Shown here: positions 29,618 to 43,903 of the stretch, one piece after another | How the letters are laid out: every line of letters begins with the position of its first letter | Position numbering within the stretch: position 1 is the stretch's first letter | Virus record (IMG/VR): IMGVR_UViG_3300045988_112906 | Length of the DNA: 64,000 bases | Direction: 5' to 3' (one strand) | From: a virus | Translations under genes and position numbers: made by a program | The notes under the pieces: generated by a model | Seen by the model: only the letters and a program-made list of their open reading frames with translations | What the model was told of the DNA's origin: nothing | Databases searched by the model: none

Positions 29618-29652
29618 AGGAGTGGGCGCTTGAGTGCTCACTCCTTCTTTTG
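29618..29652. terminator. Hairpin terminator after the orphan fragment
   Basis: AGGAGTGGGCGC-ttga-GTGCTCACTCCT (12-bp stem, 2 G:U pairs) followed by tctttt. Confidence 0.55.
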
Positions 29653-29684
29653 GGGACTCAGCATGGAATGCTGAGGAACGGGGG

Positions 29685-30071
29685 CTAGAGGGAGCTTTTC
29701 TTGCTGGCGGCGGCTTGGCAGAGGGAGCCTAAGAGATAGCAGGGTTCTTCGGTGTACATATTTATCAGGAACTGCTCGGATATGTGCTGAACTACATGGA
29801 GCATTTCGTGGGTAAGGCTATTCGTATACTCCCCTTTTGAGGTGGTCCAGCTTATTACTACTATCGTTTTTCTAGTGTCTATGTTGGAATAGGTGATGCC
29901 TTTGTTGGGTTCACCTTCGAGCACGAGATTACAGGCATCTTCGAGAGGAATGCCGCTGCATCCCAAATCCCGAAGATGCCTTCTTACCTTCATGGCATCC
30001 TTTGAGTGAACATCGTACATTACGTGTACGGTCCAGTCGTATCTATCTATGTAAATCTCCTGCTCTGTCAT
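29685..30071 (-). CDS. Small protein with an HExxH motif (128 aa), possible metallopeptidase
   Basis: SLTHEMLHVVQH contains HEMLH; there is no other support. Confidence 0.55.
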   Translation of the reverse strand: MTEQEIYIDRYDWTVHVMYDVHSKDAMKVRRHLRDLGCSGIPLEDACNLVLEGEPNKGITYSNIDTRKTIVVISWTTSKGEYTNSLTHEMLHVVQHISEQFLINMYTEEPCYLLGSLCQAAASKKSSL

Positions 30072-30074
30072 ATT

Positions 30075-30500
30075 TTACAAAATGTCTTCCCAAGGAATGC
30101 CTATGCCATTGAATGACGTATCTGCATAGAAGCGGTTGAAGATGAATCCGTCCTGCTGGTCCTCATCATCCACGTAGTCTTTGATGAACTGTGCCATCTG
30201 TTTTTCCTCTGTGATGGATGATCCGTAGAAATCGGCGAGGCACATGTGTGCGATGTAAACAGCATCGTAGCCCACATTATTCTCCAGCACGATATTATTC
30301 TTCTTCAGAATGTCCTCAATATCATCCTTACTCATGATGCGGATAGATTTTCCATTCTTCCGCATCTGCTTGATTGCCCACTCGCACATCTTCTTATTGA
30401 AGTGCCAACCATTGTAGCGAAGATAAGCCTTCATTTCCTCTGGCTGATAATCGTAGGCATTTAATGATTGTCTGTATTTTCTTCCCATAATCTCAATCAA
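30075..30500 (-). CDS. Hypothetical protein (141 aa)
   Basis: ORF track. Confidence 0.6.
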   Translation of the reverse strand: MIEIMGRKYRQSLNAYDYQPEEMKAYLRYNGWHFNKKMCEWAIKQMRKNGKSIRIMSKDDIEDILKKNNIVLENNVGYDAVYIAHMCLADFYGSSITEEKQMAQFIKDYVDDEDQQDGFIFNRFYADTSFNGIGIPWEDIL

Positions 30501-30545
30501 TTTAAGAAAGGGGTATGCCCACTTTTGAGCACACCCCCAAACTAG

Positions 30546-30821
30546 TTAGTAATCTTCTCCGTAATCACTTCTGTAATCACGTCCACGGTCTTCACGTTGG
30601 CGCATGTCTTCGTACTCCTCATGCTCTCGCATACCACTTCTGCCTCCACGACCTCTGTAATCGGGCATGCGGTTGCGCTCGCCGTATCGGTCACGTCTGC
30701 CTTCACGCTTCATTTCGCCCAGGCAGTTCATTGCCTTATCCAAGTAGCGCAAGCCCTTCTCCACGTTCTCATACAAGCCATCAAACTTGTCTTCTGTAAT
30801 CTCAACCATTATCATAATCAT
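30546..30821 (-). CDS. Small protein with an Arg/Asp/Glu/Tyr-rich disordered tail (start uncertain among MIMIM)
   Basis: ORF track; low-complexity RGG/RD-rich C-terminus. Confidence 0.45.
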   Translation of the reverse strand: MIMIMVEITEDKFDGLYENVEKGLRYLDKAMNCLGEMKREGRRDRYGERNRMPDYRGRGGRSGMREHEEYEDMRQREDRGRDYRSDYGEDY

Positions 30822-30849
30822 AAGATTTTAAAAGTGAATAGATAGGAGA

Positions 30850-31350
30850 TTACTTATTGATGCTCTGTTGGAGCCATCCCATCATTTTGTCAATCTTGCC
30901 CTCAATGCCGGAAACCTTGCCTTCCAGCTTGTTGATCTTCTCAGTCTGTTCCCTATCCTTGGCTATCTGGGGGTTGAGTTGCAGTAGCATTCCCTCACAA
31001 GATTTAACGACTCTCTCATGGTAATCTACGCTCTCCAGTATCGCCTTGGATTGTCTCAGCATTGCATCGACCTCTGCACTCATGGCTTCCTTGCTATCGC
31101 TTACCACAAGATTCTTGTCGTTCGCTATCTGTCCGTTAGCAGGTAGCTGCTTGAAATCCGCCTCTTCGTCACCCAGCTTCACCCTAACGTCCACCACAGT
31201 CTCCATAGGTTGAGGGGTGAAGCCATTGTTGAAGGATGGGTATCTCGTCTGAGGGTTGCTAACCGAAACAACCTGACCGATCCTCAAGCTAGGGTTTTCG
31301 CCCTTGTCGAGCACATAGAATAAAGAATTTGTTCGTAGTCCTTGAAACAT
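30850..31350 (-). CDS. Hypothetical protein with a C-terminal coiled coil (166 aa)
   Basis: ORF track. Confidence 0.6.
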   Translation of the reverse strand: MFQGLRTNSLFYVLDKGENPSLRIGQVVSVSNPQTRYPSFNNGFTPQPMETVVDVRVKLGDEEADFKQLPANGQIANDKNLVVSDSKEAMSAEVDAMLRQSKAILESVDYHERVVKSCEGMLLQLNPQIAKDREQTEKINKLEGKVSGIEGKIDKMMGWLQQSINK

Positions 31351-31380
31351 AATGTAATCTCCTATTATCTATTCTGTTTG

Positions 31381-31725
31381 TTAAACAATACCCGTCATCA
31401 GCTGAAGGGTGTTAGTATCTCGCTCGAACCAGAGCTGAACCACTCCAGTTCCCGGCACATCTGCAACCGTCAATGGTTCGCCATTGAACTTGCTCACAGC
31501 TTGTGTCGCTCCGTTTGTCTCGAAAAGGATAGGCAGCGTACCAGTCGTTCCAGTCGGAATAGCCTGCATCAGGTTCACGAAAATCGTCCCCCTGTAGCTG
31601 GCATTCACGAAGGCGTGGTTTTTGAACGAGAAAATAACATTTTCGGTGTTCACCGCCACGCCTGTAGAAGCGATAGCCGCCGAACCGTTACGATTCACCC
31701 ATGTATAAGGTCTTAACCATAACAT
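31381..31725 (-). CDS. Small beta-rich protein (114 aa)
   Basis: ORF track. The Thr/Gly/Val-rich pattern suggests an all-beta fold (inference). Confidence 0.55.
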   Translation of the reverse strand: MLWLRPYTWVNRNGSAAIASTGVAVNTENVIFSFKNHAFVNASYRGTIFVNLMQAIPTGTTGTLPILFETNGATQAVSKFNGEPLTVADVPGTGVVQLWFERDTNTLQLMTGIV

Positions 31726-31740
31726 AGCAGCCTCCTTTCT

Positions 31741-32745
31741 TTAACCCCAGAATCCTGCACCGTTGGCAGCATTCAGTCCGTACAAACCTGCCTGATAAGC
31801 CACGCAGTTAGGAACCGCAGTAAATGGGCTGTAAGGAGTGGTTACAGTCTCAGGCAACTTACACTTGATGCCAGCTACCTCGCTCTGAAGACCGGCAAGT
31901 ACCGCATTGATAGGTGCTACTGCCTGACCCACAATCTGAGAGGTCATTGCCGAAGACTTGAAGGTGCTATTCTCCTCACGCAGAGAATCAATCTTGTTCT
32001 GCATCTCACGCATCTCTGCCTGCTTCTGACCGTCAACGATGGTCTGAGTGCTTTCCTTGATAGCGTTGTGCAAATCACAAGTCTGGTCCTTAGTAGCATA
32101 AGCAAGAGAAGAAGCTGCTCGCTCCTGACCTACTGCCACGTTGTTGATGGCATTCTGCAAGGTTCCAGTCTGCTGACACATCGCCAACTTGATATTGCCG
32201 TCCATGGCGGTAATGTTGTTGTTGGTCTTGCAGCAGCATTCTGCCAACTGGGTAGCGATTGCGTTGTTACCCTGCATGATGGCAGTCAATACCTGATTAG
32301 CTGTCATGCCCATCTGGTTGCCGACACCACAAATCTCATTGCTTACACCATTGATGGCAGCGATAACGTTACCGGTAGTGGTGTTGAGAGCTGTAGCGAG
32401 AGACTGAACATCGTAGCCATTGCGCTGAACTGCCTGCATGATAACAGCCGTATTGGCATCGTTGTTAATCATAGGAGCAACACCGCCCTGTCCGTTAGGC
32501 ATGAAGCCACCACCGTTGGCACCGCCGAAGAAGTTGCCTCTACCCATGATAATGAAGAGAAGCAGGATGGCAAACAAATCATTGCCCCATCCGCCACCAT
32601 TGCCCTTGCCGTTACAGAGAGCAATCAAACTTGGATCTACACCCTGCTTCTGCATGAGTGCTGGGAGCATAGCGAGAATGCTATTCAAACCGCCGCCTTG
32701 GCTGGTTCCGTTCTCCCCGAATACGTAAGTTTTCGATTCTGACAT
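31741..32745 (-). CDS. Gly/Asn/Ala-rich protein with one TM segment and a CCC motif (334 aa)
   Basis: ATG at 32745; the track start at 32775 is GTG. Features include GNGGGWGNDLFAILLLFIIMGRGNFFGGANGGG and a C-terminal coiled coil. Confidence 0.55.
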   Translation of the reverse strand: MSESKTYVFGENGTSQGGGLNSILAMLPALMQKQGVDPSLIALCNGKGNGGGWGNDLFAILLLFIIMGRGNFFGGANGGGFMPNGQGGVAPMINNDANTAVIMQAVQRNGYDVQSLATALNTTTGNVIAAINGVSNEICGVGNQMGMTANQVLTAIMQGNNAIATQLAECCCKTNNNITAMDGNIKLAMCQQTGTLQNAINNVAVGQERAASSLAYATKDQTCDLHNAIKESTQTIVDGQKQAEMREMQNKIDSLREENSTFKSSAMTSQIVGQAVAPINAVLAGLQSEVAGIKCKLPETVTTPYSPFTAVPNCVAYQAGLYGLNAANGAGFWG

Positions 32746-32789
32746 AATAAATGATAGATTAATCGTTTCGTTCACTATTGAACTTGGTG

Positions 32790-32797
32790 CAAAGTTA
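32790..32797 (-). promoter_or_regulatory. -7 box TAACTTTG for the 32745..29685 operon (lacks the late upstream element)
   Basis: Exact TAnnTTTG match on the minus strand, 45 nt upstream of the ATG. Confidence 0.5.
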
Positions 32798-32964
32798 CGA
32801 AGATGTTAGCGTCCTGCCTAACTATGCTCAAAATAAAGTTTTTGCTAGTTAGAATGCTGTTTTTCAATGATTTACGATGAGCAAGTTGATGCTCATTAAT
32901 TTAGCATTTTTCTAAACTAGGAAGAAAACGAGCTTCTGTCGGTACAACCTATCGTATTTTTTCG

Positions 32965-32972
32965 TACTTTTG
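32965..32972 (+). promoter_or_regulatory. -7 box TACTTTTG for the Zorya-like cassette
   Basis: Exact TAnnTTTG match 22 nt upstream of the 32994 ATG; no late upstream element. Confidence 0.55.
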
Positions 32973-32993
32973 CAGGAAAAATCGCTTAAAATT

Positions 32994-34502
32994 ATGACTG
33001 AACAAGGAACGAATATCGCAACATTGATTTGCTGCATCATTATCGGTGGCGCATTCTTAGTCTTCTTTTATATCACCAAGACAGCGAAAGAAGACTTTCT
33101 ATTGAAACACAAGAGAACGGTTGATGCTTTCCCTTCAATCATTTCTACTCTTGGAGTTTTGGGAACATTCTTAGGAATCACAATAGGATTATCAGGTTTT
33201 GATGTGAACGACTTAACACGTAGTATTCCTATTCTTCTTGGTGGATTGAAGACAGCATTCTACACTTCGCTTGGCGGTATGTTAGGTTCCCTTATTCTAC
33301 GTCATTTCTGTACAGATATTAAGTTTGACAAAGAAGATGGAGGTGTCTCTTCTACTGATGCAGCAATCAGAGAGTTGGGAAAAGGTGTGCGAGAAATGAG
33401 TTCTACCCTAGTTACTACCTTAATCCAAAACAGAAACGAAATGAAGCAGATGGGTATGGCGCAGGCATCATTCTTTAATCAGATTTTAGAGATAAACAAA
33501 TCGCTTGTTGGCTCTGCAACTAATATTGATACCAAGCTAGCTCGTATCTCTTTGGTTGAAGGAGAACAGACTGCCACACTTAACACGCTGGCTTCTCATG
33601 CTTCTAATTTTGAAGCCAGCAATAAGCGCCTTGAGGAATCCTTGGGAGAAATTGTTGATGCACAATCGGCAAACACTTCTACATTTGACGAAATGAACGA
33701 GGAACTTAAGAAGTTCAGCCAGATTTTACGTTCAGAGGTAGATGAAATCGAAGATAAGATGGAAAGTACCAATAAACTTCTTACCAACAAGTTTGACGAG
33801 TTCAGCGAACTGCTTAAGAAGAGCAATACAGAAGCTTTGGTTAATGTCATGAAGAAGGTAACAGAAGAGTTCCAGAAGCAGATGAACGACCTTATCAGCA
33901 GATTGGTACAAGAGAACTTTGCTAAGCTGAATGAAAGTGTTGAGAAGCTGAACACATGGCAGGAAGAAAATAAGACTATGATAGAAAGCTTGACTAAGCA
34001 GTATCACCAGATGGAGCAGGACTTTGAAGGTACATCTACTGTGATGCTTGACGTTTCCAACTATGCAAACCAACTTGTTGGAAACGGTGGAAAGTTGGCT
34101 CAGTTGGTATCAGTTCTTAAAGAAGTAATGGTTGACGATCAGAAATTTATAGAAATTTCTAGAAACCTTTCCGAGTCTGCTTCGCTTGCTAAAGACGGAA
34201 TGGAGAAACAGGATGCTATTACAAATAAGCTCAATGAATGGGTTCAAGGTGTTCAAGTTTTCAAGGATGATGTTCAGCGCCTTATCAATAAGCTCGAAGA
34301 GTTGGATAGAATAAGAAACTACAACGAACAGTTCTGGCAAGGCACAAAGAAGAGCTTGGAAGAAGGTGTCGGTATTATTCAGAGCGGAAGCGAAGAGCTG
34401 AATAAGCAAATTCTGAATATAGATAAGAGTTTCTACAATAGATTAAGTGCAACATTGGCTAGTCTTGATAACTTGATTGCAACGATGTTAGATAGACACT
34501 AA
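32994..34502 (+). CDS. zorA: ZorA-like MotA/ExbB-family channel protein with a long coiled-coil tail (502 aa)
   Basis: Three N-terminal TM segments. STLGVLGTFLGITIGL and LKTAFYTSLGGMLGSLIL match the MotA/TolQ/ExbB signatures. The remaining ~370 aa are heptad-rich. ATG at 32994; the track start is TTG. Confidence 0.8.
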   Translation: MTEQGTNIATLICCIIIGGAFLVFFYITKTAKEDFLLKHKRTVDAFPSIISTLGVLGTFLGITIGLSGFDVNDLTRSIPILLGGLKTAFYTSLGGMLGSLILRHFCTDIKFDKEDGGVSSTDAAIRELGKGVREMSSTLVTTLIQNRNEMKQMGMAQASFFNQILEINKSLVGSATNIDTKLARISLVEGEQTATLNTLASHASNFEASNKRLEESLGEIVDAQSANTSTFDEMNEELKKFSQILRSEVDEIEDKMESTNKLLTNKFDEFSELLKKSNTEALVNVMKKVTEEFQKQMNDLISRLVQENFAKLNESVEKLNTWQEENKTMIESLTKQYHQMEQDFEGTSTVMLDVSNYANQLVGNGGKLAQLVSVLKEVMVDDQKFIEISRNLSESASLAKDGMEKQDAITNKLNEWVQGVQVFKDDVQRLINKLEELDRIRNYNEQFWQGTKKSLEEGVGIIQSGSEELNKQILNIDKSFYNRLSATLASLDNLIATMLDRH

Positions 34503-34513
34503 ACAGAATCATT

Positions 34514-35212
34514 ATGGCAAAAAATAATATATGGATGTCTGTTTCTGACCTTATGACAGGATTGATGGTGATATTTTTGTTTGTTGCCATTGCCTATATC
34601 AGTAAGGTTCAGGAACATTCGGTAACGCTGAAAGATTACGTGGAGGTGAAAGAAAATCTTCACGACAAACTGGTAAGCAAGTTTGAAGGAGATACTGCTA
34701 AATGGCAAATGACCATTGGTAGCGATTTGTCAATGAAGTTCAAGAATGCTTCTGTACTTTTTCAGCAGGGTTCAGATCAGCTTTCTCCTGAGTTCAAAAA
34801 GGTTCTTGCGGACTTCTTGCCAAGGTATTTTGATATACTTTTGAATGACAGTTTACGAAACCATATAACAGAAATTCGCATCGAGGGGCATACGGACGAC
34901 TGGGGTTATCCACAGCTTGATAAAGACCCTTATATTGCAAATGTTATCCTCTCGCAGAAACGTGCACTGAATGTCCTTCGCTTCTTCCGTTCTCTGCCAG
35001 AGTTTCAGAAATACACTCCAAAAGAGAAGGCGTTGCTGGAATATTGGTTTACGGCAAATGGTCTTTCATACGGCAAGGCTTTGGATTCAAAAGGTGAATA
35101 CATTCATGACAGCCATAACAAAATCGACTTAGCTAAGTCTAGACGAGTAGAGTTCAGAATTATTACTGATAGCGAAAAGCTTCTGGAGAATTTTGTTGGC
35201 AAAAACAAATAA
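34514..35212 (+). CDS. zorB: ZorB-like MotB/OmpA-family protein (232 aa)
   Basis: The N-terminal TM carries a conserved Asp (SVSDLMTGLMVIFLFVAI). The OmpA-like peptidoglycan-binding box is IRIEGHTDDWG...LSQKRALNV...SRRVEFRI. Confidence 0.85.
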   Translation: MAKNNIWMSVSDLMTGLMVIFLFVAIAYISKVQEHSVTLKDYVEVKENLHDKLVSKFEGDTAKWQMTIGSDLSMKFKNASVLFQQGSDQLSPEFKKVLADFLPRYFDILLNDSLRNHITEIRIEGHTDDWGYPQLDKDPYIANVILSQKRALNVLRFFRSLPEFQKYTPKEKALLEYWFTANGLSYGKALDSKGEYIHDSHNKIDLAKSRRVEFRIITDSEKLLENFVGKNK

Positions 35213-35225
35213 TTAAATAATTATT

Positions 35226-36068
35226 ATGGAAGAGGAACCATTGATTAATTTTAGTGCACTTAGAGATAAACTAATAGCATTGGGATTTCATATAAAGGAG
35301 CCAAAAGGAAAAGGCGGCTATAGCGAGGTTGAATCACAAGATGTTACTCTTGGAGATATACAAAATGGAACATTAAAGATTGATAAAACCGGTATCTTTA
35401 ATATTGATCCTGACACAGGAGAAGAACAACGTATTTTTCTGTATAAAAGAAAATACAATCTCAAAAGGTTTGGAAAGCCAAGATACCATATTTGCAAATG
35501 TCAAACCATAGAAGATTTTATGAATGCTGCTGGTGCCATCCCAGAATACAGGAAAGCAAATAAAATGCCCGTGTGGGTTATTGATACTAGTGACAATAAC
35601 AAAGATAAACAGATAGATAATCTACCTCTTTGTAAAAATTGTGCAGCCATTTTAGGCAACATTAATAAAAACACTACTTCAAATGAATTTGTTGAAATTT
35701 TAAAAAAGGCATATAAAGCTCCTAGTAAACCGGGAGAAAAGATAGAAGTCGATGTTAATGGCTATACTAGAGATTGGAGGGAGATCAGTAAAAAGTATCG
35801 AGAGAAGCATAACTACACATGTGAAAGATGTGGTGTAAAAGTTATGAATCCGTTCGAAAGTGAGTTTATGCAGACTCATCATCGAAATGGCAACAAGACT
35901 GACAATCGTGAAAACAACCTGGAGTGTCTTTGCATTAAGTGCCATTCCGAAGTTGATGATACCCATAGAAGAAATTTCAACACTCTAGCCCAGCAAGGTA
36001 TCATCCAAGAGTTTCTGCTGAAATATGGTACGGAACGCTTTAAAGGAAAAAGTGGGGAGTTGTTTTAA
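35226..36068 (+). CDS. zorE: ZorE-like HNH endonuclease (280 aa)
   Basis: HNH box THHRNGNKTDNRENNLECLCIKCH at 35877..35945. Additional CxxC pairs (CKC, CKNC, CERC). Confidence 0.75.
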   Translation: MEEEPLINFSALRDKLIALGFHIKEPKGKGGYSEVESQDVTLGDIQNGTLKIDKTGIFNIDPDTGEEQRIFLYKRKYNLKRFGKPRYHICKCQTIEDFMNAAGAIPEYRKANKMPVWVIDTSDNNKDKQIDNLPLCKNCAAILGNINKNTTSNEFVEILKKAYKAPSKPGEKIEVDVNGYTRDWREISKKYREKHNYTCERCGVKVMNPFESEFMQTHHRNGNKTDNRENNLECLCIKCHSEVDDTHRRNFNTLAQQGIIQEFLLKYGTERFKGKSGELF

Positions 36069-36085
36069 CGCCCCCACTCTTTTAT
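36051..36085. terminator. Bidirectional hairpin terminator between zorE-like and the fibre operon
   Basis: AGTGGGG-N14-CCCCACT followed by cttttatt. Confidence 0.55.
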
Positions 36086-36120
36086 TATAAAGTCAGCGAC
36101 TTAGAGTTCTTTTTTCTCAA

Positions 36121-37107
36121 TTACTTATATTTATTCATTTCAATATTATTGACAATGATATTAGTCAATCCTTTTTTGTAAAGTGTGCGGATGGCAGCTT
36201 GAGCATCAGTAGATGGAATGTAACCATTAGGGCATCTCACAACAATCTTCTTAACTTTATTGTCATGTTGAGAACTTAAAGAATCTGCATCCAGTGTACA
36301 AGTAGATTGGTCAATAAACATATTATCCACATCAGAATGTGAAGCAAATCCTAACTGGTCTAATGTGGTATCTATAGCAAGAAGATACGCATTGGTTCTT
36401 TTCCCCTTTGTCCAAGTTAGTTTTGGATAAGGAACTGTTACATAACGAACAGAGGATGGGACATCTGCTAGGTCACCTGATATTCCACTATTGCGAATAG
36501 TAAATGCCCAGTCTTTATTCTCTGTCAAATTTAACTTTGCTACATCTGCTATTTTTCCAGTAATATTCTTGCAAGATGCAATCTGCATAGTTGTGGTAGA
36601 ACTTGGAAGGTTGCTGATGTCAAGATATAAGTCTGGACATGAACCTATAATCAAATCTGTTACCTGCGAATGTTTTACCAAATCGTTAATATCTCCTTTG
36701 AAGTTAGACGAAATTCTTAATTTCTTTAGCCCTGTAAGCCATGTCAATTTTGACAAATCCATCTTGTCTTTATCTGAGAAAAGGCAAGAACCGTCATTTT
36801 TAATATTTAAAACAGTCACTGATTCCTTTGGAATTATGCTTAGCGTAAATTTCTTATCAGACAGAATATTCTTAGTTTTTTCAGTCTTTACATCCAAGGT
36901 TGTACTTCCATCAATGAAAGTTACTCCATCTGTACTAATTATTTTTATAGTCGCATTGCTGTTTGTGTCAACAATCCCCCATTCACTACCACAAACTCTA
37001 AACTGCTCATCGCTTTTTCCATAGCAATGGAGCTTTATTTCATTGAACTTTAAAAGTTTGTCGTTGCCAACTAAATGTGTCAACGTTTTTTTAAGACATT
37101 TATTCAT
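36121..37107 (-). CDS. Putative receptor-binding / LRR-like protein (328 aa)
   Basis: Last gene of the fibre operon. Irregular Leu-rich repeats (LTWLTGLKKLRISSNFKGDINDL...). Very AT-rich. Confidence 0.6.
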   Translation of the reverse strand: MNKCLKKTLTHLVGNDKLLKFNEIKLHCYGKSDEQFRVCGSEWGIVDTNSNATIKIISTDGVTFIDGSTTLDVKTEKTKNILSDKKFTLSIIPKESVTVLNIKNDGSCLFSDKDKMDLSKLTWLTGLKKLRISSNFKGDINDLVKHSQVTDLIIGSCPDLYLDISNLPSSTTTMQIASCKNITGKIADVAKLNLTENKDWAFTIRNSGISGDLADVPSSVRYVTVPYPKLTWTKGKRTNAYLLAIDTTLDQLGFASHSDVDNMFIDQSTCTLDADSLSSQHDNKVKKIVVRCPNGYIPSTDAQAAIRTLYKKGLTNIIVNNIEMNKYK

Positions 37108-37109
37108 AA

Positions 37110-39302
37110 TTATTTGATTTTTATTAATTCAAAATTTCTATGTTTACCTTCTGTTGACCATTGATTTCCAAGTCGATTGAGAATCAAGGAGTCTTTTCTA
37201 AATGTCACAACTGTTAGAGCATCAAATGCTAACGAGTTAACATCATCCACATTAGGAATGTCTGCTGCATGTCTTTGTTGCTTGTTGTTTGATGCACACA
37301 CAGGATTGATGGAATATTGTTTGCCATACGAGTTGTGCTTAAAGACCAAATCACGATGGCTATGCCCACCTATATATGCAATGAAATTTGCTTTCACATT
37401 TGTAAAGTCATAGTCTAATGAGTAAGCGTATTTGTCCGAATCTCCATTGACATTAAGATAGGAAGCATCCGCAGTATGCCATCCAGAATGGCACATCTTT
37501 ACCTTAATATTTCCTGTTGTCTTATTGTTAAAACCATTAATCAGCTCAGAAAACAAGTCTGTTTCCATTGCATACATGCCATCGTCTTTAGCATTTAAAT
37601 CCGAGCTTACGGCAAACTTATAATCCTTCACATTTGAGCTGTTTATCATCGCAGGATTGTGAGTTGCAACAACAATCCCATAACCTTCCGGAGTAGAGTT
37701 TAAGGTATCAATAAACCATCTAGCTTGTTCCGCCATGATAACCCTTGTTGCTCTTCCGCATTTATAATATGGAAGTGTATGAAGCGTATAATCAGGGTTC
37801 TGAGTATTATCAATAGTCACGACATTTTTTTTGCAGACAAAAGAATGATCTTTATATCCACCGCAGTTAATCTTATCGCCAACTGAATATGATGCTCCAG
37901 GTTTTACCATAGCAGCAGTAGAATCGTATTCTACTACATTCCAATAATCATTGTCTGCAACATCTAGAGGATTATCATACTCATACGGAACTATAAGCCT
38001 GATTTTTCTTTCTTTGAAGTCGTGATAATAATAATTTTTTCCATAAGTATATTCACCTTCTTTAAGGATGCCCGATTCTATCATTGGTAGTATGAAATCC
38101 ATAAAGATTTCATCATGAGTTGCAGCTGTATTTAAATATAAGGTGTTACCAACATCATGATTTCCGACAACAATAAACCACGGTTTTACACAAGATGACA
38201 TAACCTTAATTGTAGATTGTACTTCACTACGGTCATAGATATAATTACAAATATCTCCACAATGAATAATCGCATCTATGGAAGCGAAATTACTTGTTAG
38301 CTTAACTGCATTTTCTACTGGTGTAGTTTCTCCATGTGAATCTGTCACTATACATAATTGTAAATCTTTCCCCTGTGCTTCCAAAGTGTTATATCTGCAA
38401 GCACTAAACAAGGCATCAGTATTTTGTTTGTTTCGTAAAACGACATTGCTTCCCGTGATTATTTCTTTTTGCAACTTTTCAATTTTCTCACTGAGATACG
38501 ATGATAGTTTATCTATCGTCTCAGACTTCATATTGTGAGCATAGTGACTTCCGTCTTCATACGTGCCGGCAAGAACCTTGCCATCTGCATCCGTCTCCAC
38601 CTCTATAAACTCGGGGTTGTCAATTACCGAATGGGCTGCTGCAACTTCGGAATCAATCAGGGATTTGCCTTCCTCCTTGTCAACCTTAGTATCGTTCAGT
38701 TCATCAATCGTCTCAGACTTCATATTGTGAGCATAGTGACTTCCGTCCGCATACGTACAAGCAAGCACATTATCGTCCGCATCGGTCTCAATATTCATGA
38801 ACTCTGGGGTGTTGACATAAGAAAATGGATTTTTAATAATATTATTTTCCGTGTCTCTAATTTCTGTATTGTCTGCCAAGTTGCTGAGTTTATCACTCAC
38901 CGCCTTCTGACTCATTACCTTATCTTCTGCTTCACCAGACTCCTGCAAGATTGATGTCTTGTCAATTTTAGCCCCTTGCAGTTCATCGACTGCACCTTGG
39001 ATATTTGCCGAGGTAAGTTGGGAAGTGGTGTTGTCGTAAGTAACAGCACTTGCAACACTGGCACCACCAGTGGCGGCGATATTCTTCAAAGTCTCTGTAA
39101 TCTGATCATCACGAGTGTTGAGCTTTTTCATATTATCATCCAGCGAGGCGTTCTTTGCGTCTTGGGCAGATTTGTTGGCGGTAATCTGCTGCTGCTTGTC
39201 ATTAATCTGACCCTGCAAGGCGTCTGATACGGACTTTGTGTAGGATTTGATTTTACCCCAAAAGTGCATGAGACCAGAATCGTTTAAATATTTCTTTTCC
39301 AT
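37110..39302 (-). CDS. Tail fibre protein fused to a calcineurin-like metallophosphoesterase domain (730 aa)
   Basis: The N-terminal YLNDSGLMHFWGKIKSY is shared with the neighbouring fibre gene. MPE motifs are present in order: DSHG, GD, GNHD, ATHN, GGHSH (about 37325..38390). Confidence 0.8.
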   Translation of the reverse strand: MEKKYLNDSGLMHFWGKIKSYTKSVSDALQGQINDKQQQITANKSAQDAKNASLDDNMKKLNTRDDQITETLKNIAATGGASVASAVTYDNTTSQLTSANIQGAVDELQGAKIDKTSILQESGEAEDKVMSQKAVSDKLSNLADNTEIRDTENNIIKNPFSYVNTPEFMNIETDADDNVLACTYADGSHYAHNMKSETIDELNDTKVDKEEGKSLIDSEVAAAHSVIDNPEFIEVETDADGKVLAGTYEDGSHYAHNMKSETIDKLSSYLSEKIEKLQKEIITGSNVVLRNKQNTDALFSACRYNTLEAQGKDLQLCIVTDSHGETTPVENAVKLTSNFASIDAIIHCGDICNYIYDRSEVQSTIKVMSSCVKPWFIVVGNHDVGNTLYLNTAATHDEIFMDFILPMIESGILKEGEYTYGKNYYYHDFKERKIRLIVPYEYDNPLDVADNDYWNVVEYDSTAAMVKPGASYSVGDKINCGGYKDHSFVCKKNVVTIDNTQNPDYTLHTLPYYKCGRATRVIMAEQARWFIDTLNSTPEGYGIVVATHNPAMINSSNVKDYKFAVSSDLNAKDDGMYAMETDLFSELINGFNNKTTGNIKVKMCHSGWHTADASYLNVNGDSDKYAYSLDYDFTNVKANFIAYIGGHSHRDLVFKHNSYGKQYSINPVCASNNKQQRHAADIPNVDDVNSLAFDALTVVTFRKDSLILNRLGNQWSTEGKHRNFELIKIK
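38511..38810. repeat. Internal duplication in the fibre gene (two ~108-bp units, 38511..38618 and 38703..38810)
   Basis: The units encode NPEFIEVETDADGKVLAGTYEDGSHYAHNMKSETID and TPEFMNIETDADDNVLACTYADGSHYAHNMKSETID. The 39-nt string cgtctcagacttcatattgtgagcatagtgacttccgtc is identical in both. Confidence 0.85.
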
Positions 39303-39312
39303 ATTATGTTTA

Positions 39313-39837
39313 TTATGTTAAACCATTAATATATTCGTCTGAAATTGCAGTGAAGTCTAGGTTTGCCAGCTTCTGTTTTTCAGCCGTAGTATAATCGTTT
39401 TCCGAAAGCCCTTTACCTTCCACCTTATCTACCTTTTTCGAGAGAGCAGCATTTACTGTTTCAGTCTTAGCGTATGACGTAAGATCAACGTCCGACTTAT
39501 ATTCTCCGATTTTCTCCCATTTGGTTTCATCATAAGTTTTGCTTGTATCGCCAGTATAGAGATACTCGGCATAGATATTTTTGGATGAAGTGGAAGAAGC
39601 TTTAATGAGGTAGATTCTGTTTGAAAGGATATTGCTTGTAGGCAAATACTCAACAACCTTGAACAACGACATATCAAGATTGCCAAGCTGTGTCAGCGGT
39701 ATTTTTCCATTCGCATCGAGTGAAGCTAATCCGTTGGCTTTTCCTTTTTCTGAACTTGGTATAAAGTTTTTTTCGTTGATATACGATTTTACTTTGTTCC
39801 AAAGTGTAGATAGTCCGAGTTTATCAAGATATTCCAT
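39313..39837 (-). CDS. Tail fibre protein (174 aa)
   Basis: The N-terminal MEYLDKLGLSTLWNKVKSY parallels the start of the 730-aa fibre. ATG at 39837; the track start is TTG. Confidence 0.65.
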   Translation of the reverse strand: MEYLDKLGLSTLWNKVKSYINEKNFIPSSEKGKANGLASLDANGKIPLTQLGNLDMSLFKVVEYLPTSNILSNRIYLIKASSTSSKNIYAEYLYTGDTSKTYDETKWEKIGEYKSDVDLTSYAKTETVNAALSKKVDKVEGKGLSENDYTTAEKQKLANLDFTAISDEYINGLT

Positions 39838-39844
39838 ACGCAAA

Positions 39845-40708
39845 CTATATTAATACTTCTTTTACCTCATTTGGTTTCATATTAGACTGCTTGATGTTGT
39901 CAATCTCGTCTTCTACATTTCTGACTCTTGACTCTAAGGAAGCAGACGGCTGAACTGGCACAGGAACATACGTTCCGTCAATAACCTTATCTATATCTGC
40001 ATCAGAAATAGAAACAAACTCATTTACCTGATTTTGAATATTCTGAATAGATTTATCAATGTTCTGAATCTTCTCTACAAGATCTTCCGGCAAGCCAATA
40101 GCTGCAAGGAGAAGCTTCCTTAATTCCTCGGCGAGCTTGTCTAGTGTAACGGAACATTCTGCAAGCTTATCTCTTGTAACACCTTCTGTAGCTATCTTGT
40201 CCGTTGTTACCGCATCGTTTGCGATGATGTCAGACGTTACGCTGCTGTCTCGAAGTACTCTTGTATCAACAGAAGAATCTCCCAACTTTCCATTGGTTAC
40301 ATTCTTATCGGCAATCTTCTCAGCGGTAACACTGCCATCCTTGATTTTCCGTGTTATGACAGCATCATCTTGAAGCTTATCATAGCTTACGGATGAAAAA
40401 TCTAACTTTCCGTTAGTTACAGACCGATCATCAAGCTTTTCTTCTGTTACAGATCCATTATCAAGCTTAGATGTAGAAACAGCACCTTCAGCTAACTTCT
40501 CGGTCGTGATATTCTCATCCGCTATCTTCGAAGCCTTGATTGCTCCGTCAGGTAGCTTATCCGTAGAAACTGCACCATCAGCGAGCTTCTCGGTCGTAAC
40601 ATTGCCGTCACGAATCTTTTCTTTCGTGATGGCTTGGTCGTTGATGTCGTCTGTTTTCATCATCGGCACCATGCAACCTAATTTTGGATCATCTCTAAAT
40701 GTAGGCAT
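39845..40708 (-). CDS. Fibre/collar protein with 17 tandem decapeptide repeats (287 aa)
   Basis: The repeat D-G-[AS]-V-[TS]-x-x-K-[LI]-x occurs 17 times (aa 24-193), followed by a coiled coil. Confidence 0.7.
   Translation of the reverse strand: MPTFRDDPKLGCMVPMMKTDDINDQAITKEKIRDGNVTTEKLADGAVSTDKLPDGAIKASKIADENITTEKLAEGAVSTSKLDNGSVTEEKLDDRSVTNGKLDFSSVSYDKLQDDAVITRKIKDGSVTAEKIADKNVTNGKLGDSSVDTRVLRDSSVTSDIIANDAVTTDKIATEGVTRDKLAECSVTLDKLAEELRKLLLAAIGLPEDLVEKIQNIDKSIQNIQNQVNEFVSISDADIDKVIDGTYVPVPVQPSASLESRVRNVEDEIDNIKQSNMKPNEVKEVLI
40130..40639. repeat. 30-bp coding repeat array (17 imperfect units)
   Basis: Encodes the decapeptide repeats of 39845..40708. Confidence 0.75.
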
Positions 40709-40973
40709 ATTTGATTTCTTTTGGTTCTGATGAAGTGAATATCTGAATCTTTATGGTTTCTGGAATCACCCGAAGACGAAGTTTGAACTCACTGGTGTTC
40801 TTGTGGGCACGGATGGGAACTCTCGGTTTCTTGCCATCGCCCCTATCCTGTCTGATTACCAGTTTTCCTGGGCGCTTTAGCTTAATCATCAGGTAGATGT
40901 CACGCTGCAAGGTTATCTCTGGGGAGACCCATGCCAGTTCTTCTTCGCTATAATTCGTAGATACATACTCCAT
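40695..40973 (-). CDS. Hypothetical virion-module protein (92 aa)
   Basis: ORF track; lies in the late operon. Confidence 0.5.
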   Translation of the reverse strand: MEYVSTNYSEEELAWVSPEITLQRDIYLMIKLKRPGKLVIRQDRGDGKKPRVPIRAHKNTSEFKLRLRVIPETIKIQIFTSSEPKEIKYAYI

Positions 40974-40980
40974 GATTTCA

Positions 40981-41637
40981 TTATTTTGATGTTTGACTAA
41001 CGCCTAGCTGCTGCAAGGCTATCGTGTACATTTGCGTAGCCTTGGTATCATCGTAGGCTGAAAGCAATAAGAAGGCGAGATAGTAGATGAAGGCATTCTT
41101 CAAGCGGTCTGGGATAGCTACATCTGTAGAATCGGACGTGCTTACGTTCTTCGGAACACCCACATAGGAAATAACCGCTTCCGTAGGCTTGGGCTGCAAG
41201 AGGATTTTCAGAGGATTCTCACGCATGATAGCCGCTTGTGGTCGGTCGATGGTTCCCTTTGCCGTATCATCAAACATCATGACAGCCTCATCTTGGGTAT
41301 CTTCTATAGGCACTACTGCCTTGAACCAGCCATTGCCCCGAATGCGAGAGATATTGATCACCTCGGTATTGGCATCCATCGTAATGATACCGATGCTTTT
41401 CTGAGCATCGTAGTCCTGCACTTGGAGGGTGGCGGAAGAAGTACCTATCTTCTTGGAATCAATCAATGCAGCAGAGGATGATGCGGTAACGGCAATCCAA
41501 TGCAGGGCATCGTTGATTTTTGCCTTGATGATGTTGTCCATATACAAATCATCCTTCTCATCTGTGATTGATGAGAAGTTGTTGGATTCCTCGTCTATGC
41601 ACCAACGAACTGCCTTTATGATGTCTTCTACCTTCAT
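40981..41637 (-). CDS. Putative head-tail connector/adaptor (218 aa)
   Basis: Call rests on position after the MCP gene only. Confidence 0.5.
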   Translation of the reverse strand: MKVEDIIKAVRWCIDEESNNFSSITDEKDDLYMDNIIKAKINDALHWIAVTASSSAALIDSKKIGTSSATLQVQDYDAQKSIGIITMDANTEVINISRIRGNGWFKAVVPIEDTQDEAVMMFDDTAKGTIDRPQAAIMRENPLKILLQPKPTEAVISYVGVPKNVSTSDSTDVAIPDRLKNAFIYYLAFLLLSAYDDTKATQMYTIALQQLGVSQTSK

Positions 41638-41655
41638 TTCACCTTATTATATATG

Positions 41656-42102
41656 TTACTCCTTCATGTAGTTCGGGAAGTCATAGTTGTGCTTCTTCGC
41701 CCATTCCATAGCACTTGATGCGGTCTTGAACATTCTTGAACCCTCACGATTGTCTTCCTCGTTGACGAAAGCAAGGAGATCTGATGCCGTGACTACAGAA
41801 GTTACCTCAATGACAGAACCCTTGGTCTTGGCTAAAGAAGCTTCCTTTTCCTTCTCCTCATTCTCCCTCAGTCTGTCTTCGATGGTCTTCTCAGAGCGAA
41901 CGAGAGTAACAAGCCCCTTCTGGAACAATTCACTGTTTTCGAGCAGATTCTGAGCATACTCATTCTTCAAGATAAGCTCGGGTTTCTGCTTGGTGATTAC
42001 ATTACCTCGCTCGAAGTTATAGCGAACGGTTACGCCATTCTTACCCTGTAGGATATGACTTACCGTGTTTCTATTTGCGTTATATCTATAAGTCTTAATC
42101 AT
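41656..42102 (-). CDS. Hypothetical virion-module protein (148 aa)
   Basis: ORF track; immediately downstream of the MCP gene. Confidence 0.6.
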   Translation of the reverse strand: MIKTYRYNANRNTVSHILQGKNGVTVRYNFERGNVITKQKPELILKNEYAQNLLENSELFQKGLVTLVRSEKTIEDRLRENEEKEKEASLAKTKGSVIEVTSVVTASDLLAFVNEEDNREGSRMFKTASSAMEWAKKHNYDFPNYMKE

Positions 42103-42170
42103 ATTGCTAAAAGTTTAGTTTGAATAACAGGTGACCGGCATTAACCAGTCACTTGTTATTCTGTGCATTA

Positions 42171-43892
42171 CTAGGCAGCTACCAGCTGACCCGAGAAGAG
42201 TTCCCATTTACCACCCTTGTAGATGTAAACATTCTCCTTCTCGTACTTGGTTGTACCTTCGCCACCAGCATTGGTAACCTCGTAATCGGCAGTCAAAGCG
42301 ACGATCATACCCTCATGTGGAGTCTCAGGCAACCTGCTCATGGAGATAATGTTGTTGATAACGCCAGATGCGCCAAGAGCAGAAATCTTCGCCTCTGGAC
42401 CGACAAGAATACTGTTGTAGCCACGGAGTGCTATGCAGTCTGCCTCCCAGTGCATGTAGCGCTTAGCCAGACGTGGGTCGTAAGCATCCTTAGACAAGTC
42501 GTTGGTGCGCTCTTTGCTCTTCTCCTTGACGTAGTGACGAGCACCCTTGAAGTCAGCACCAATCATGCAGTCTTCCAAATCCATGTAGTCGAGTGTGCTG
42601 TCCCAAACGAAGTTGAGTGTACCATAGCTGCACTTGAACTGGTTGAAGGTGATATCGAACTCCTTGACGGTAGAGAACATAACATCACGACCCTTAGGAA
42701 GCTCAATCTTCATCAGGCGCTCGATAGCGTTCTTGCCGCAGAAGAGATACATTTCATCAGACTCAGCAAAGTCTGTAAACATCAGTTTGGCGATAGCGAT
42801 AAGGTCAGCGAATGTATAGGTGTCACCGATACCATAGGAGTTGGTCAACTGATTGATGATACCCTCGGCAGAGTAAGCGTACTCCTGGGCGCCATCCTTG
42901 GTTTCCATCAGGAATTTGAGCTTAGTACCATAGAGGTAGCTTCGCTCCTGACGGAGCAAGAACTTGGTGAGAGCATCTTCCTTCATGTCGGCAACAGTAT
43001 GAGGAGCCTTCCTCTTGATCTTCTCGAACTCCTCGGTGAAGATGATAGAGAATGCACGCTTCTGCAAGTAAACCTCCTCAGAACGAGGCTGGTAGTTCTC
43101 TGGCGGAACATTCATCTGGCTCTCAGAGAGGATGGTGGAAGCGCAGAGAATACGACTATTGGCAGGGATAGCAGGGCAACCCATCGTATCGAGCGTTTCG
43201 CCAATAGTGCCCTCTGTCTCAGCTGGACCATTGAGCGCCTGCAAAGTAACCTCGTCCTTTGTCTTCTCAACAACCAGGAGATTCAAGCGACCATTAACCT
43301 TGGTCTTTGAACCACGCTCGTAACCAGGCACAGAAGGAACGATCACGGTGCTACCCTTGTAGAGAGGAAGAAGCGAACCGGAGAAGTTTGCCTTGGTAAG
43401 CTTGATTGTGCCGCCAGCCGCAGCTGCCTCAATCGCCTTGGTAGTCATACCATCAAGAGTATCACCACCAACACGAGCGTGCTTCTTCTCGTAGCTGTTA
43501 CAAGGAACACTCTTGGTAACCTTGCGGATAATCTGCAACAAAGGAGTGCGGAAAGGGCGATACTTCTCTACCTCACTATCCCAATCCTCTTCGGCAAGAC
43601 CACCCTTGCGAATCTGGGTAGCAGAAGCCTGTGTGCCGGTTAAGTCCTGACCTTCGGCTTTGCCGCCTGGCGCCAATCGGTCTGATACGTTTGGATCAAC
43701 AGGCTCGGTTGCAGCATCAGCCTTAGATGAAGGCTCATGACCCTCGTCACCAATCTGTGTAGTCGGTTCAGCCGTATCTGCCATAGCAAGAACGCCGCCG
43801 CCAGTTACCACGGCAAGAAGCATCAGAATCATCTTGAAGACGAACTGAGCACTTGTGAAATTCTTAATACAATCTTTCTTCATTTTATACAT
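42171..43892 (-). CDS. Putative major capsid protein (573 aa)
   Basis: Follows an acidic scaffold-like gene. Core strings such as EDALTKFLLRQERSYLYGTK and DEMYLFCGKNAIERLMKI resemble conserved HK97-fold MCP segments (judged from memory). The stop is TAG immediately followed by TAA. Confidence 0.7.
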   Translation of the reverse strand: MYKMKKDCIKNFTSAQFVFKMILMLLAVVTGGGVLAMADTAEPTTQIGDEGHEPSSKADAATEPVDPNVSDRLAPGGKAEGQDLTGTQASATQIRKGGLAEEDWDSEVEKYRPFRTPLLQIIRKVTKSVPCNSYEKKHARVGGDTLDGMTTKAIEAAAAGGTIKLTKANFSGSLLPLYKGSTVIVPSVPGYERGSKTKVNGRLNLLVVEKTKDEVTLQALNGPAETEGTIGETLDTMGCPAIPANSRILCASTILSESQMNVPPENYQPRSEEVYLQKRAFSIIFTEEFEKIKRKAPHTVADMKEDALTKFLLRQERSYLYGTKLKFLMETKDGAQEYAYSAEGIINQLTNSYGIGDTYTFADLIAIAKLMFTDFAESDEMYLFCGKNAIERLMKIELPKGRDVMFSTVKEFDITFNQFKCSYGTLNFVWDSTLDYMDLEDCMIGADFKGARHYVKEKSKERTNDLSKDAYDPRLAKRYMHWEADCIALRGYNSILVGPEAKISALGASGVINNIISMSRLPETPHEGMIVALTADYEVTNAGGEGTTKYEKENVYIYKGGKWELFSGQLVAA

Positions 43893-43903
43893 ATATTTAT
43901 GGA

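What the first reader, a model, noticed from the sequence alone, without database searches (positions are those of the whole stretch)
32965..36085. Type II Zorya-like cassette (MotA-like + MotB/OmpA-like + HNH) carried inside the phage's virion-gene block
Three co-directional plus-strand genes interrupt a run of minus-strand late genes.
- Gene 1 (502 aa) has three N-terminal TM helices with MotA/TolQ/ExbB signatures (STLGVLGTFLGITIGL, LKTAFYTSLGGMLGSLIL). A tail of about 370 aa rich in heptad repeats follows.
- Gene 2 (232 aa) has a MotB-like TM with the conserved Asp (SVSDLMTGLM). It also has an OmpA-type peptidoglycan-binding box (GHTDDWG, LSQKRALNV, SRRVEFRI).
- Gene 3 (280 aa) has an HNH box (HHRNGNKTDNRENNLECLCIKCH) and extra CxxC pairs.

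This gene content equals the published ZorA/ZorB/ZorE composition of type II Zorya.

The cassette has its own non-late TACTTTTG promoter and a bidirectional hairpin terminator. By eye it is more AT-rich than the flanking capsid genes.

A phage-borne Zorya splitting a late operon suggests phage-versus-phage defence expressed from the lysogen. It also makes this an unusually compact Bacteroidota variant.
Basis: partly seen in the sequence, partly recalled or inferred. Interest (0 to 1): 0.75.

Follow-up and report, generated by a model that had tools for sequence, protein, structure and literature searches.

The report
Type II Zorya defence cassette in phage
A human-gut Bacteroidales phage that is probably temperate carries a complete, well-conserved three-gene type II Zorya anti-phage defence system as optional cargo beside its tail-fibre genes; this is a clear example of a known system in a known kind of place, not a new mechanism.

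Summary
Window 32994-36068 encodes three tightly packed plus-strand genes. All three give full-length matches to the type II Zorya profiles: ZorA2 E=3.7e-172, ZorB2 2e-76, ZorE2 2e-82.

Functional residues are intact. ZorB Asp12 aligns with the critical Asp21 of the solved type II ZorB. The ZorE HNH residues and two zinc sites are invariant. dN/dS among phage-borne copies is 0.004-0.13.

The window is 100% identical to a 76-kb gut metagenome phage contig. That phage has an SU10-type capsid, a P22-type portal, giant polyvalent proteins, an integrase and an anti-repressor.

The cassette is accessory. It is absent from most of the more than 600 related viral stretches. In those relatives the same slot holds small envelope-type genes.

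- The TACTTTTG promoter is real and invariant, but it belongs to the slot and is shared with the other cargo.
- AT-richness holds only against the core virion genes, not against the adjacent tail-fibre genes.
- The cassette is not unusually compact.
- Only the right flank is shown to be virion genes.
- Lysogeny is predicted, not shown.

Similar Zorya II cassettes sit in at least five other Bacteroidales viral backbones and in Bacteroidales chromosomes. A survey preprint already lists Zorya in gut phages. Verdict: new member of a known kind, moderate interest.

The parts
32899..32993 (+). Conserved ~95-nt promoter segment of the cargo slot. It contains the Bacteroides-type -7 box TACTTTTG (32965-32972).
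   Evidence: TACTTTTG and the flanking T5 and GxAAAA are invariant in 12 of 12 aligned relatives, whatever the cargo. The segment travels with Zorya in L001, L003, L004, L005 and L038. A second copy lies at 27553-27670 on the minus strand. Function as a promoter is inferred.
32994..34502 (+). zorA: 502 aa, with a MotA/ExbB-like three-helix membrane core (residues ~4-104) and a ~385-aa helical heptad tail.
   Evidence: PADLOC ZorA2 PDLC00635, E=3.7e-172, residues 6-500 on profile positions 10-499 of 505. PDB 8vvi_F (type II ZorA), E=4.4e-14. 3.5-residue periodicity reached by 0 of 1000 shuffles. The AF2 single-sequence model is all-helical but low confidence, pLDDT 52. No Pfam MotA_ExbB hit.
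34514..35212 (+). zorB: 232 aa, with an N-terminal TM helix carrying Asp12 and an OmpA-like peptidoglycan-binding domain.
   Evidence: PADLOC ZorB2 PDLC00641, E=2e-76, full length. PDB 8vvi_A, E=1.8e-40 over residues 3-230, with Asp12 aligned to the critical Asp21 (PMC11890865). Pfam OmpA 28.5 bits against a 27.2 cut-off. dN/dS 0.004-0.014.
35226..36068 (+). zorE: 280 aa, N-terminal DUF8245 plus a C-terminal HNH nuclease. It is the short form, lacking the C-terminal nuclease-like extension of some E. coli ZorE.
   Evidence: PADLOC ZorE2 PDLC00644, E=2e-82, full length. PHROG HNH families down to 1.8e-10. Homologues carry PF26739 (DUF8245) and PF13392. H218/H219, N227/N231, H240, C199/C202/C236/C239 and H88/C92/C136/C139 are invariant in 39 sequences. 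The AF2 model (pLDDT 81) has a beta-beta-alpha unit at 215-241. The Foldseek PDB search gave no significant hit, though many weak hits are HNH nucleases.
36052..36085 (.). Terminator-like hairpin between the convergent zorE and g36121, with T-runs on both strands. It overlaps the zorE stop codon.
   Evidence: Folds at -15.7 kcal/mol (plus strand) and -22.4 (minus strand), z-scores -2.4 and -2.2. It lies inside the cassette homology, which ends at 36105-36115 in L001 and L003-L005. The simple terminator scan did not list it, because of its long loop. Function is inferred.
29685..32775 (-). Left flank: a conserved six-gene block of unknown function (context, not part of the cassette). It has its own TAACTTTG box at 32790-32797.
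   Evidence: All PHROG hits are 'unknown function', and the only Pfam hit is DUF7841. The block is present in more than 600 IMG/VR stretches. It occurs in both orientations relative to the tail module.
36121..44707 (-). Right flank: the virion module (context). It holds variable tail-fibre/receptor-binding genes (36121-40708), an SU10-type adaptor (40981-41637), the SU10-type major capsid protein (42171-43892) and a 267-aa gene.
   Evidence: PHROG tail-fibre hits. Metallophos domain in the 730-aa protein. SU10_adaptor and SU10_MCP on the identical contig L151.

Best explanation
The cassette is a functional type II Zorya anti-phage system (zorA-zorB-zorE). It is carried as an accessory 'moron' in a dedicated cargo slot of a ~76-kb Bacteroidales podovirus-like phage that is probably temperate.

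Inferred mechanism, taken from the characterised E. coli and Sulfuricurvum type II systems (PMC11890865, PMC11946911, PMC13192584). ZorA and ZorB assemble as a 5:2 ion-driven motor in the inner membrane. The ZorB OmpA-like domain anchors the motor to peptidoglycan. When an incoming phage perturbs the envelope, ion flow through the Asp12 site drives ZorA. The long pentameric ZorA tail then recruits the soluble ZorE HNH nickase, which nicks DNA at the entry site and stops the infection.

Transcription is inferred to start from a host-type (TAnnTTTG) promoter conserved at this slot, and to stop at a hairpin shared with the convergent tail-fibre gene. That would allow expression independently of the virion genes, including from a prophage.

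The likely benefit to the phage is exclusion of competing phages from the cell it occupies. A sensor triggered by entry would not be set off by the resident phage's own induction.

Shown here: the identity, completeness, residue conservation, purifying selection, accessory status and boundaries of the cassette. Inferred: stoichiometry, trigger, nickase activity, timing of expression and the protective phenotype.
For: Identity. All three proteins match the type II profiles over their full length. ZorB matches the solved type II ZorB at E=1.8e-40, with the critical Asp aligned, and ZorA matches 8vvi_F. The ZorA tail has heptad periodicity. The ZorE catalytic and zinc residues are invariant and sit on a beta-beta-alpha unit. 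Homologues carry DUF8245, the domain published for ZorE (PMC13192584). Gene order is A-B-E with 11- and 13-nt gaps.

Functional maintenance. dN/dS is 0.004-0.13, with synonymous sites near saturation. ZorB is 100% identical in contigs whose DNA is only 86-89% identical.

Phage carriage. Portal, terminase, tail-fibre, SU10 capsid and adaptor genes lie on the same contig. The same junctions appear in 23 independent contigs.

Accessory status. The cassette is absent from most relatives, which carry small signal-peptide, lipoprotein or TM genes in the same slot behind the same promoter. A divergent Zorya II occupies the slot in L055 and L056. The same cassette sits in a distant backbone, L003.

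Temperate indicators. Tyrosine integrase, Ant and HTH genes. The nearest cultured relatives are reported as temperate Bacteroides phages (PMC12694917).
Against: There are no expression or phenotype data. No integrated prophage copy or host junction was recovered: the integrase is surrounded by phage genes in every contig, and the 153.6-kb contig is about twice 76.5 kb, so it is probably a concatemer. Pfam MotA_ExbB does not hit ZorA, and Pfam HNH_3 is below threshold for ZorE. Foldseek gave no significant PDB match for ZorE. The ZorA model is low confidence. Some related copies are decayed (L038, L154, L156), so carriage is not always maintained. All mechanistic detail is transferred from Proteobacterial and Campylobacterota homologues that share only about 30-40% identity.
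Confidence: 0.85

Rival explanations
1. The cassette works mainly during lytic growth, not in a lysogen. The infecting phage expresses it early, to shut out co-infecting or superinfecting phages or to damage host DNA. The phage may be effectively virulent.
For: All recovered contigs are non-integrated forms. A promoter recognised by the host sigma factor would also fire immediately on infection. Published work shows that ZorE can nick the host chromosome (PMC11890865).
Against: An integrase, an anti-repressor and HTH repressor-like genes are present. The alternative cargo in the slot looks like classic lysogenic-conversion genes. The two modes are not mutually exclusive.
Confidence: 0.1
2. The phage has co-opted the three genes for its own life cycle. 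Examples would be an HNH nuclease that assists the terminase, or a MotAB-like envelope complex that assists lysis or DNA entry. On this reading they are not a defence system.
For: HNH endonucleases often assist phage terminases. In the L007 lineage a related cassette lies next to the terminase and capsid genes. PHROG gives a weak small-terminase hit for ZorE, E=8.8e-4.
Against: The cassette is missing from most members of the same lineage, which nevertheless keep all virion genes. It sits at different places in different phages: next to an integrase, helicases or a terminase. Homologues lie among housekeeping genes in bacterial chromosomes. All three proteins match the Zorya II profiles end to end, including the ZorE-specific DUF8245.
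Confidence: 0.03
3. The cassette is an assembly artefact (host DNA joined to a phage contig), or a decaying non-functional remnant.
For: The source is a metagenome contig. Decayed copies exist in relatives: L038 has lost ZorB, and ZorE is split in L154 and ZorA in L156.
Against: The same junctions are seen in 23 contigs from independent samples and in IMG/VR contigs. All three ORFs are intact with conserved catalytic residues, and dN/dS is 0.004-0.13.
Confidence: 0.02

Closest known systems
Type II Zorya (ZorA-ZorB-ZorE) of E. coli and Sulfuricurvum kujiense (Doron 2018; Mariano 2025, PMC11890865; PDB 8VVI)
   Same: The three-gene content and order are the same. ZorB matches 8vvi_A over its full length, with the critical Asp conserved. 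ZorA has a MotA-like core and a long helical tail. ZorE has DUF8245 plus HNH with two zinc sites.
   Different: The host phylum is Bacteroidota and the carrier is a phage. ZorE lacks the C-terminal nuclease-like extension seen in the Druantia-III-associated E. coli variants (PMC13192584). No Druantia or other known defence genes were found in the neighbours scanned. Sequence identity to the solved proteins is low, apart from ZorB.
Type I Zorya (ZorABCD; Hu 2024, PMC11946911)
   Same: It has the same kind of ZorAB 5:2 motor, with a peptidoglycan-binding domain and a cytoplasmic tail. The type I ZorA and ZorB profiles also hit, but much more weakly.
   Different: There is no ZorC or ZorD, and the effector is the HNH ZorE. 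The ZorA tail is shorter: about 385 aa against about 500 aa in EcZorA.
Prophage 'moron' and defence hotspots, for example the P2/P4 hotspots and BstA in lambda-like prophages (Owen 2021; Rousset 2022, both from memory)
   Same: An accessory, independently transcribed cassette occupies a fixed slot whose content varies among related phages. It has its own promoter and terminator.
   Different: The slot lies between an unknown-function block and the tail-fibre genes of a Bacteroidales phage. The slot promoter is a repeated ~95-nt element. The other cargo at the slot matches no PADLOC family.
Survey-level detection of Zorya in Gut Phage Database genomes (bioRxiv 10.1101/2024.10.26.620412)
   Same: It reports that gut phage genomes carry many defence types, and names Zorya among them.
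   Different: The survey gives no locus-level description. It names Zorya explicitly only for phages with Desulfobacterota hosts. Here the cassette, its slot, its boundaries and its spread across Bacteroidales phage lineages are resolved.

Membership tests
Zorya type II | ZorA: a MotA/ExbB-like membrane core followed by a long C-terminal helical tail. | tested here: met
   PADLOC ZorA2, E=3.7e-172, full length. 8vvi_F, E=4.4e-14, over the TM core and part of the tail. Heptad periodicity reached by 0 of 1000 shuffles. Caveats: no Pfam MotA_ExbB hit at E<=0.01, and the AF2 model is low confidence.
Zorya type II | ZorB: an N-terminal TM helix with the conserved ion-coupling Asp, plus an OmpA/MotB-like peptidoglycan-binding domain. 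| tested here: met
   PADLOC ZorB2, 2e-76. 8vvi_A, 1.8e-40, with Asp12 aligned to Asp21 (PMC11890865). Pfam OmpA is above its cut-off. The motifs GHTDD 125-129, NVILSQKRA 143-151 and SRRVEF 209-214 are present.
Zorya type II | ZorE: a soluble HNH nuclease effector (DUF8245 + HNHc). | tested here: met
   PADLOC ZorE2, 2e-82. DUF8245 and HNH_3 on homologues and on the identical protein in L151. The HNH and zinc residues are invariant. The model has a beta-beta-alpha unit at 215-241. The whole-chain Foldseek search was not significant.
Zorya type II | The operon is zorA-zorB-zorE, co-directional and contiguous, with no ZorC, ZorD, ZorF or ZorG. | tested here: met
   The gaps are 11 and 13 nt. Neighbours match no Zorya or other defence profile convincingly.
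Zorya type II | ZorA5B2 stoichiometry and ion-driven rotation. | not testable with these tools
   Inferred from homology to 8VVI only.
Zorya type II | Protects cells against phage infection, and ZorE has nickase activity. | not testable with these tools
   This needs cloning and phage challenge in Bacteroides, and a nuclease assay.
Prophage-encoded defence moron | The cassette is accessory: present in some members of a phage lineage and absent from others, at a fixed slot. | tested here: met
Prophage-encoded defence moron | The carrier is a temperate phage, and the cassette is expressed in the lysogen. | tested here: inconclusive
   An integrase, Ant and HTH genes are present, and a host-type promoter box is conserved. 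No integrated copy was recovered, and there are no expression data.

The most novel reading that the evidence does not exclude
Gut Bacteroidales phages may be a major, overlooked vehicle and diversification ground for type II Zorya. The cassette sits behind a portable ~95-nt promoter element that defines interchangeable cargo slots. Within the phage-borne cassettes ZorB is frozen (97-100% identical). The ZorA tail varies, including a natural variant about 130 residues shorter in L056, and the DUF8245 half of ZorE is swapped or evolves fast (60-95% identical). That pattern would fit an arms race at the tail-effector interface, or with phage-encoded Zorya inhibitors. If so, these natural variants would map the still-unknown ZorA-tail/ZorE recruitment interface.
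Probability: 0.2. Interest if true: 0.6.

Novelty: new member of a known kind. Interest (0 to 1): 0.42.

Why it matters
Zorya has been studied almost entirely in Proteobacteria, as a chromosomal or island-borne system. Four things follow from this locus:
- It gives a resolved example of a complete, selectively maintained type II Zorya riding on a prevalent type of human-gut Bacteroidales phage.
- Together with at least five other viral backbones that carry related cassettes, it suggests that phages help move Zorya II among gut Bacteroidales and use it against each other.
- It offers compact natural variants (tail length, ZorE alleles) and a defined promoter and terminator for functional tests in Bacteroides.
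- It identifies a conserved cargo slot and promoter element that could be mined for new exclusion genes.

It does not reveal a new mechanism.

Tried and rejected
- Megablast of the 10-kb region against GenBank phages found only a short, unrelated-length match. tblastn of ZorA against GenBank phages found one unannotated 4.6-kb fragment.
- No tRNA was found, so there was no attachment-site clue.
- The sigma-70 and terminator consensus scan was uninformative. The promoter type does not apply to Bacteroides, and the scan missed the hairpin.
- I looked for inverted repeats flanking the invertible left block in window 28400-37200 and found none convincing. The repeated promoter element was found later, outside that range.
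- The ZorE sequence search against the PDB found nothing. The Foldseek search found nothing significant.
- The single-sequence ZorA model was too low in confidence for anything beyond secondary structure.
- Integrase look-ups gave no host junction, so the host species and the integrated state remain unknown. The GTDB scan returned only relatives at 43-54% identity, so no host could be assigned from it.
- Pfam and PADLOC gave nothing useful for the left-flank block or for the alternative cargo.
- Literature searches found no locus-level report of Zorya on Bacteroides phages.
Full report
**Observation**

The three plus-strand ORFs are exactly as described: 32994-34502 (502 aa from the ATG; an upstream TTG would give 510 aa), 34514-35212 (232 aa) and 35226-36068 (280 aa). 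They are separated by 11 and 13 nt. Minus-strand genes run on both sides, at 26672-32775 and 36121-44707. All quoted peptide motifs are present. TACTTTTG is at 32965-32972, 22 nt upstream of the ATG.

A hairpin at 36052-36077 overlaps the zorE stop codon and has T-runs on both strands. It folds at -15.7 kcal/mol on the plus strand and -22.4 on the minus strand, with z-scores of -2.4 and -2.2.

**Identity of the cassette**

Against PADLOC-DB, the three proteins match the type II profiles over their full length:
- ZorA2 PDLC00635: E=3.7e-172, residues 6-500 on profile positions 10-499 of 505.
- ZorB2 PDLC00641: E=2e-76.
- ZorE2 PDLC00644: E=2e-82.

The type I and type III profiles score far lower. 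Pfam is much less sensitive here. Only OmpA passes its cut-off for ZorB, HNH_3 is below threshold for ZorE, and MotA_ExbB does not hit ZorA at all.

Against the PDB, ZorB matches chain A of 8VVI at E=1.8e-40 over residues 3-230, and ZorA matches chain F at E=4.4e-14. 8VVI is the Sulfuricurvum kujiense type II ZorAB 5:2 motor (PMC11890865). The ZorB aspartate that the paper calls critical (D21) aligns with Asp12 here.

The ZorA tail (residues 119-501) has no proline. Its hydrophobic periodicity peaks at exactly 3.5 residues, which 0 of 1000 shuffles reach. A single-sequence AlphaFold model is all-helical but low confidence (pLDDT 52), so I use it only as weak support.

ZorE homologues, and the identical protein on contig L151, carry PF26739 (DUF8245) with a weak HNH_3. 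That is the architecture published for E. coli ZorE, without the optional C-terminal nuclease-like extension (PMC13192584). In an alignment of 39 homologues the following are invariant: H218/H219, N227/N231 and H240; the CxxC...CxxC site (C199, C202, C236, C239); and a second site (H88, C92, C136, C139). An AlphaFold model built with that alignment (pLDDT 81) places these residues on a beta-beta-alpha unit at 215-241.

Foldseek against the PDB gave no significant whole-chain match (best E=0.04). At least 20 of the 50 weak hits are HNH nucleases, including McrA, the Gme nicking HNH, Cap5 and HNH-Cascade. I count the fold search itself as inconclusive, and the HNH assignment as met on the other evidence.

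**Is the cassette maintained?**

Among phage-borne copies, dN/dS is 0.004-0.014 for zorB, 0.07-0.13 for zorA and 0.05-0.11 for zorE, with synonymous sites near saturation. ZorB is 100% identical in contigs whose DNA is only 86-89% identical. Variation is concentrated in patches of the ZorA tail and in the DUF8245 half of ZorE, which is 60-95% identical among cassettes whose ZorB is 97-100% identical.

Some related copies are decayed. L038 keeps only the ZorA N-terminus and the ZorE C-terminus. ZorE is split in L154, and ZorA is split in L156.

**Context**

The window is a phage. It has a portal (phrog_156; P22_portal), a terminase, tail-fibre proteins, an SU10-type major capsid protein (42171-43892), an SU10-type adaptor (40981-41637) and an Ant/Bro-N anti-repressor. 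It also has two giant ORFs with polyvalent-protein domains (LPD3, LPD38; in relatives ddrB-ParB, AAA_34 and Helicase_C_4). A Bacteroidota-type tyrosine integrase lies at 341-1477.

Window 24514-45212 is 100% identical to ENA contig ERZ1748977 NODE_37, which is 76,317 bp long. The nearest cultured phages by portal (30-36% aa identity) are Bacteroides phages reported as temperate (PMC12694917).

Every contig that carries the integrase has phage genes on both sides of it. The one 153.6-kb contig is about twice the genome length, so it is probably a concatemer. No integrated copy or host junction was found. Temperate growth is therefore a prediction.

The right flank is a real virion module. The left six-gene block (29685-32775) has only 'unknown function' PHROG hits plus DUF7841. 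It has its own TAACTTTG box at 32790-32797. It occurs in both orientations among relatives. 'Splitting a late operon' is therefore not established.

**Accessory status and boundaries**

The left-flank gene is found in more than 600 IMG/VR stretches. Among the 80 best of these, only L082 carries this Zorya, and L055 and L056 carry a divergent type II Zorya in the same slot. The ZorA of L056 is 368 aa and lacks about 100 profile positions of the tail.

In all other window-like relatives, the slot holds one or two small plus-strand genes of 139-213 and 72-92 aa. Most start with signal-peptide, lipoprotein or TM-like N-termini, and none matches a PADLOC family.

Cassette homology spans window ~32899-36115 in the close relatives that carry it (L001, L004, L005). 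In L003, whose backbone is only distantly related, it spans 32943-36105. The promoter box and the hairpin therefore move with the cassette.

Relatives that lack Zorya share the left flank up to 32980-32989. In a 12-sequence alignment, TACTTTTG and its flanking T5 and GxAAAA are invariant whatever the cargo, and homology breaks about 10 nt before each cargo ATG. A second copy of the same ~95-nt element lies at about 27553-27670 on the minus strand, in front of a two-gene module. So the promoter belongs to the slot and is shared. It is not specific to Zorya.

**Composition and size**

The cassette is 38.1% GC. The left block is 47.6% and the capsid block 48.0%, but the adjacent variable tail-fibre genes are 37-40%. 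The window mean is 43.6%, and 12% of 3.2-kb windows are as low as the cassette. The AT-richness claim is therefore only partly right.

The 'unusually compact' claim is not supported. All three proteins match their profiles end to end, and the solved type II ZorA chain is shorter, at 378 aa.

**Wider distribution**

IMG/VR holds 38 loci with relatives of this ZorA. Besides the window's own lineage, they fall into several unrelated backbones. In these the cassette lies next to terminase and capsid genes (L007 group), an integrase (L035 group), or replication helicases (L010, L016).

In representative bacterial genomes, homologues at 43-54% identity occur across Bacteroidales genera. On long contigs they sit among housekeeping genes such as a TonB receptor, UvrA/UvrB, RtcB and RibBA. 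The clade is therefore both chromosomal and phage-borne.

**Mechanism**

By homology to the characterised systems, ZorA5B2 is an ion-driven motor anchored to peptidoglycan. It senses envelope perturbation at phage entry and uses the ZorA tail to recruit the ZorE nickase (PMC11890865, PMC11946911, PMC13192584). None of this was tested here.

A system triggered by entry suits a resident phage, because its own induction would not trigger it. That is my inference.

**Novelty**

Prophage-borne defence systems are well known. A survey preprint already lists Zorya among the systems found in Gut Phage Database genomes. I found no locus-level description for Bacteroidales phages. I rate this as a new member of a known kind, of moderate interest.

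The slot promoter element, the ZorA tail-length and ZorE allele variation, and the invertible left block are the parts most worth following up.

Noticed in passing
window 29685-32775 (and L004, L038, L040, L083, L086 versus L005, L046, L049): The six-gene block left of the cassette occurs in both orientations relative to the tail and portal module among closely related phages. In the inverted genomes that carry Zorya (L004, L038), copies of the ~95-nt promoter segment flank the block as inverted repeats. This suggests inversion by recombination between promoter copies. The first gene (g31741) is also mosaic: 92-97% or about 63% identical, while its neighbours stay near 90%.
   Followed up: partly
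window 27553-27670 (minus strand): A second copy of the ~95-nt promoter element (TATTTTTG at 27587-27594) lies upstream of two small genes of unknown function (27118-27555 and 26672-27106). The 23-nt core pattern has 2 hits in the window against 0.2 expected. This looks like a portable promoter that marks cargo modules.
   Followed up: partly
window 19692-29608: The giant polyvalent-protein gene appears to be split. In relatives (L148, L149, L152) one ORF of about 5,800 aa carries ddrB-ParB, AAA_34, Helicase_C_4 and LPD38. In the window a 2,302-aa ORF ends at 26600. A three-gene minus-strand module (26672-28473, including Ant/Bro-N) follows, and then a separate 260-284-aa LPD38 ORF (28754-29608).
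   Followed up: partly
L056 8659-9765 and L055: A divergent type II Zorya occupies the same slot (ZorB 59% identical, ZorA 33%). Its ZorA is only 368 aa and lacks about 100 profile positions of the tail. This is a natural tail-length variant.
   Followed up: partly
L038 9900-11050; L154 10707-11550; L156 2784-4305: Decayed cassettes occur in relatives. L038 has an internal deletion that removes ZorB and joins the ZorA N-terminus region to the ZorE C-terminus. ZorE is split into two ORFs in L154, and ZorA is split in L156.
   Followed up: partly
L150 11680-12408 and L155 3476-4204: An extra plus-strand GDSL/SGNH-hydrolase gene (242 aa) sits directly after zorE in some otherwise similar phages. 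It may be additional cargo, or it may be related to receptor modification.
   Followed up: no
window 35226-36068 versus L005, L004, L148, L152: ZorE comes in distinct allele groups (60%, 75% and 94% identity to the window), while ZorB is 97-100% identical. The differences concentrate in the N-terminal DUF8245 half. This suggests effector swapping or fast evolution within the cassette.
   Followed up: partly
window 37110-39302: The 730-aa protein in the tail-fibre region contains a calcineurin-like metallophosphoesterase domain (residues ~315-414). It also gives a weak hit to the PADLOC candidate family PDC-S10 (E=1.8e-5). This gene and g36121 are replaced by unrelated genes in L005 and other relatives.
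   Followed up: no
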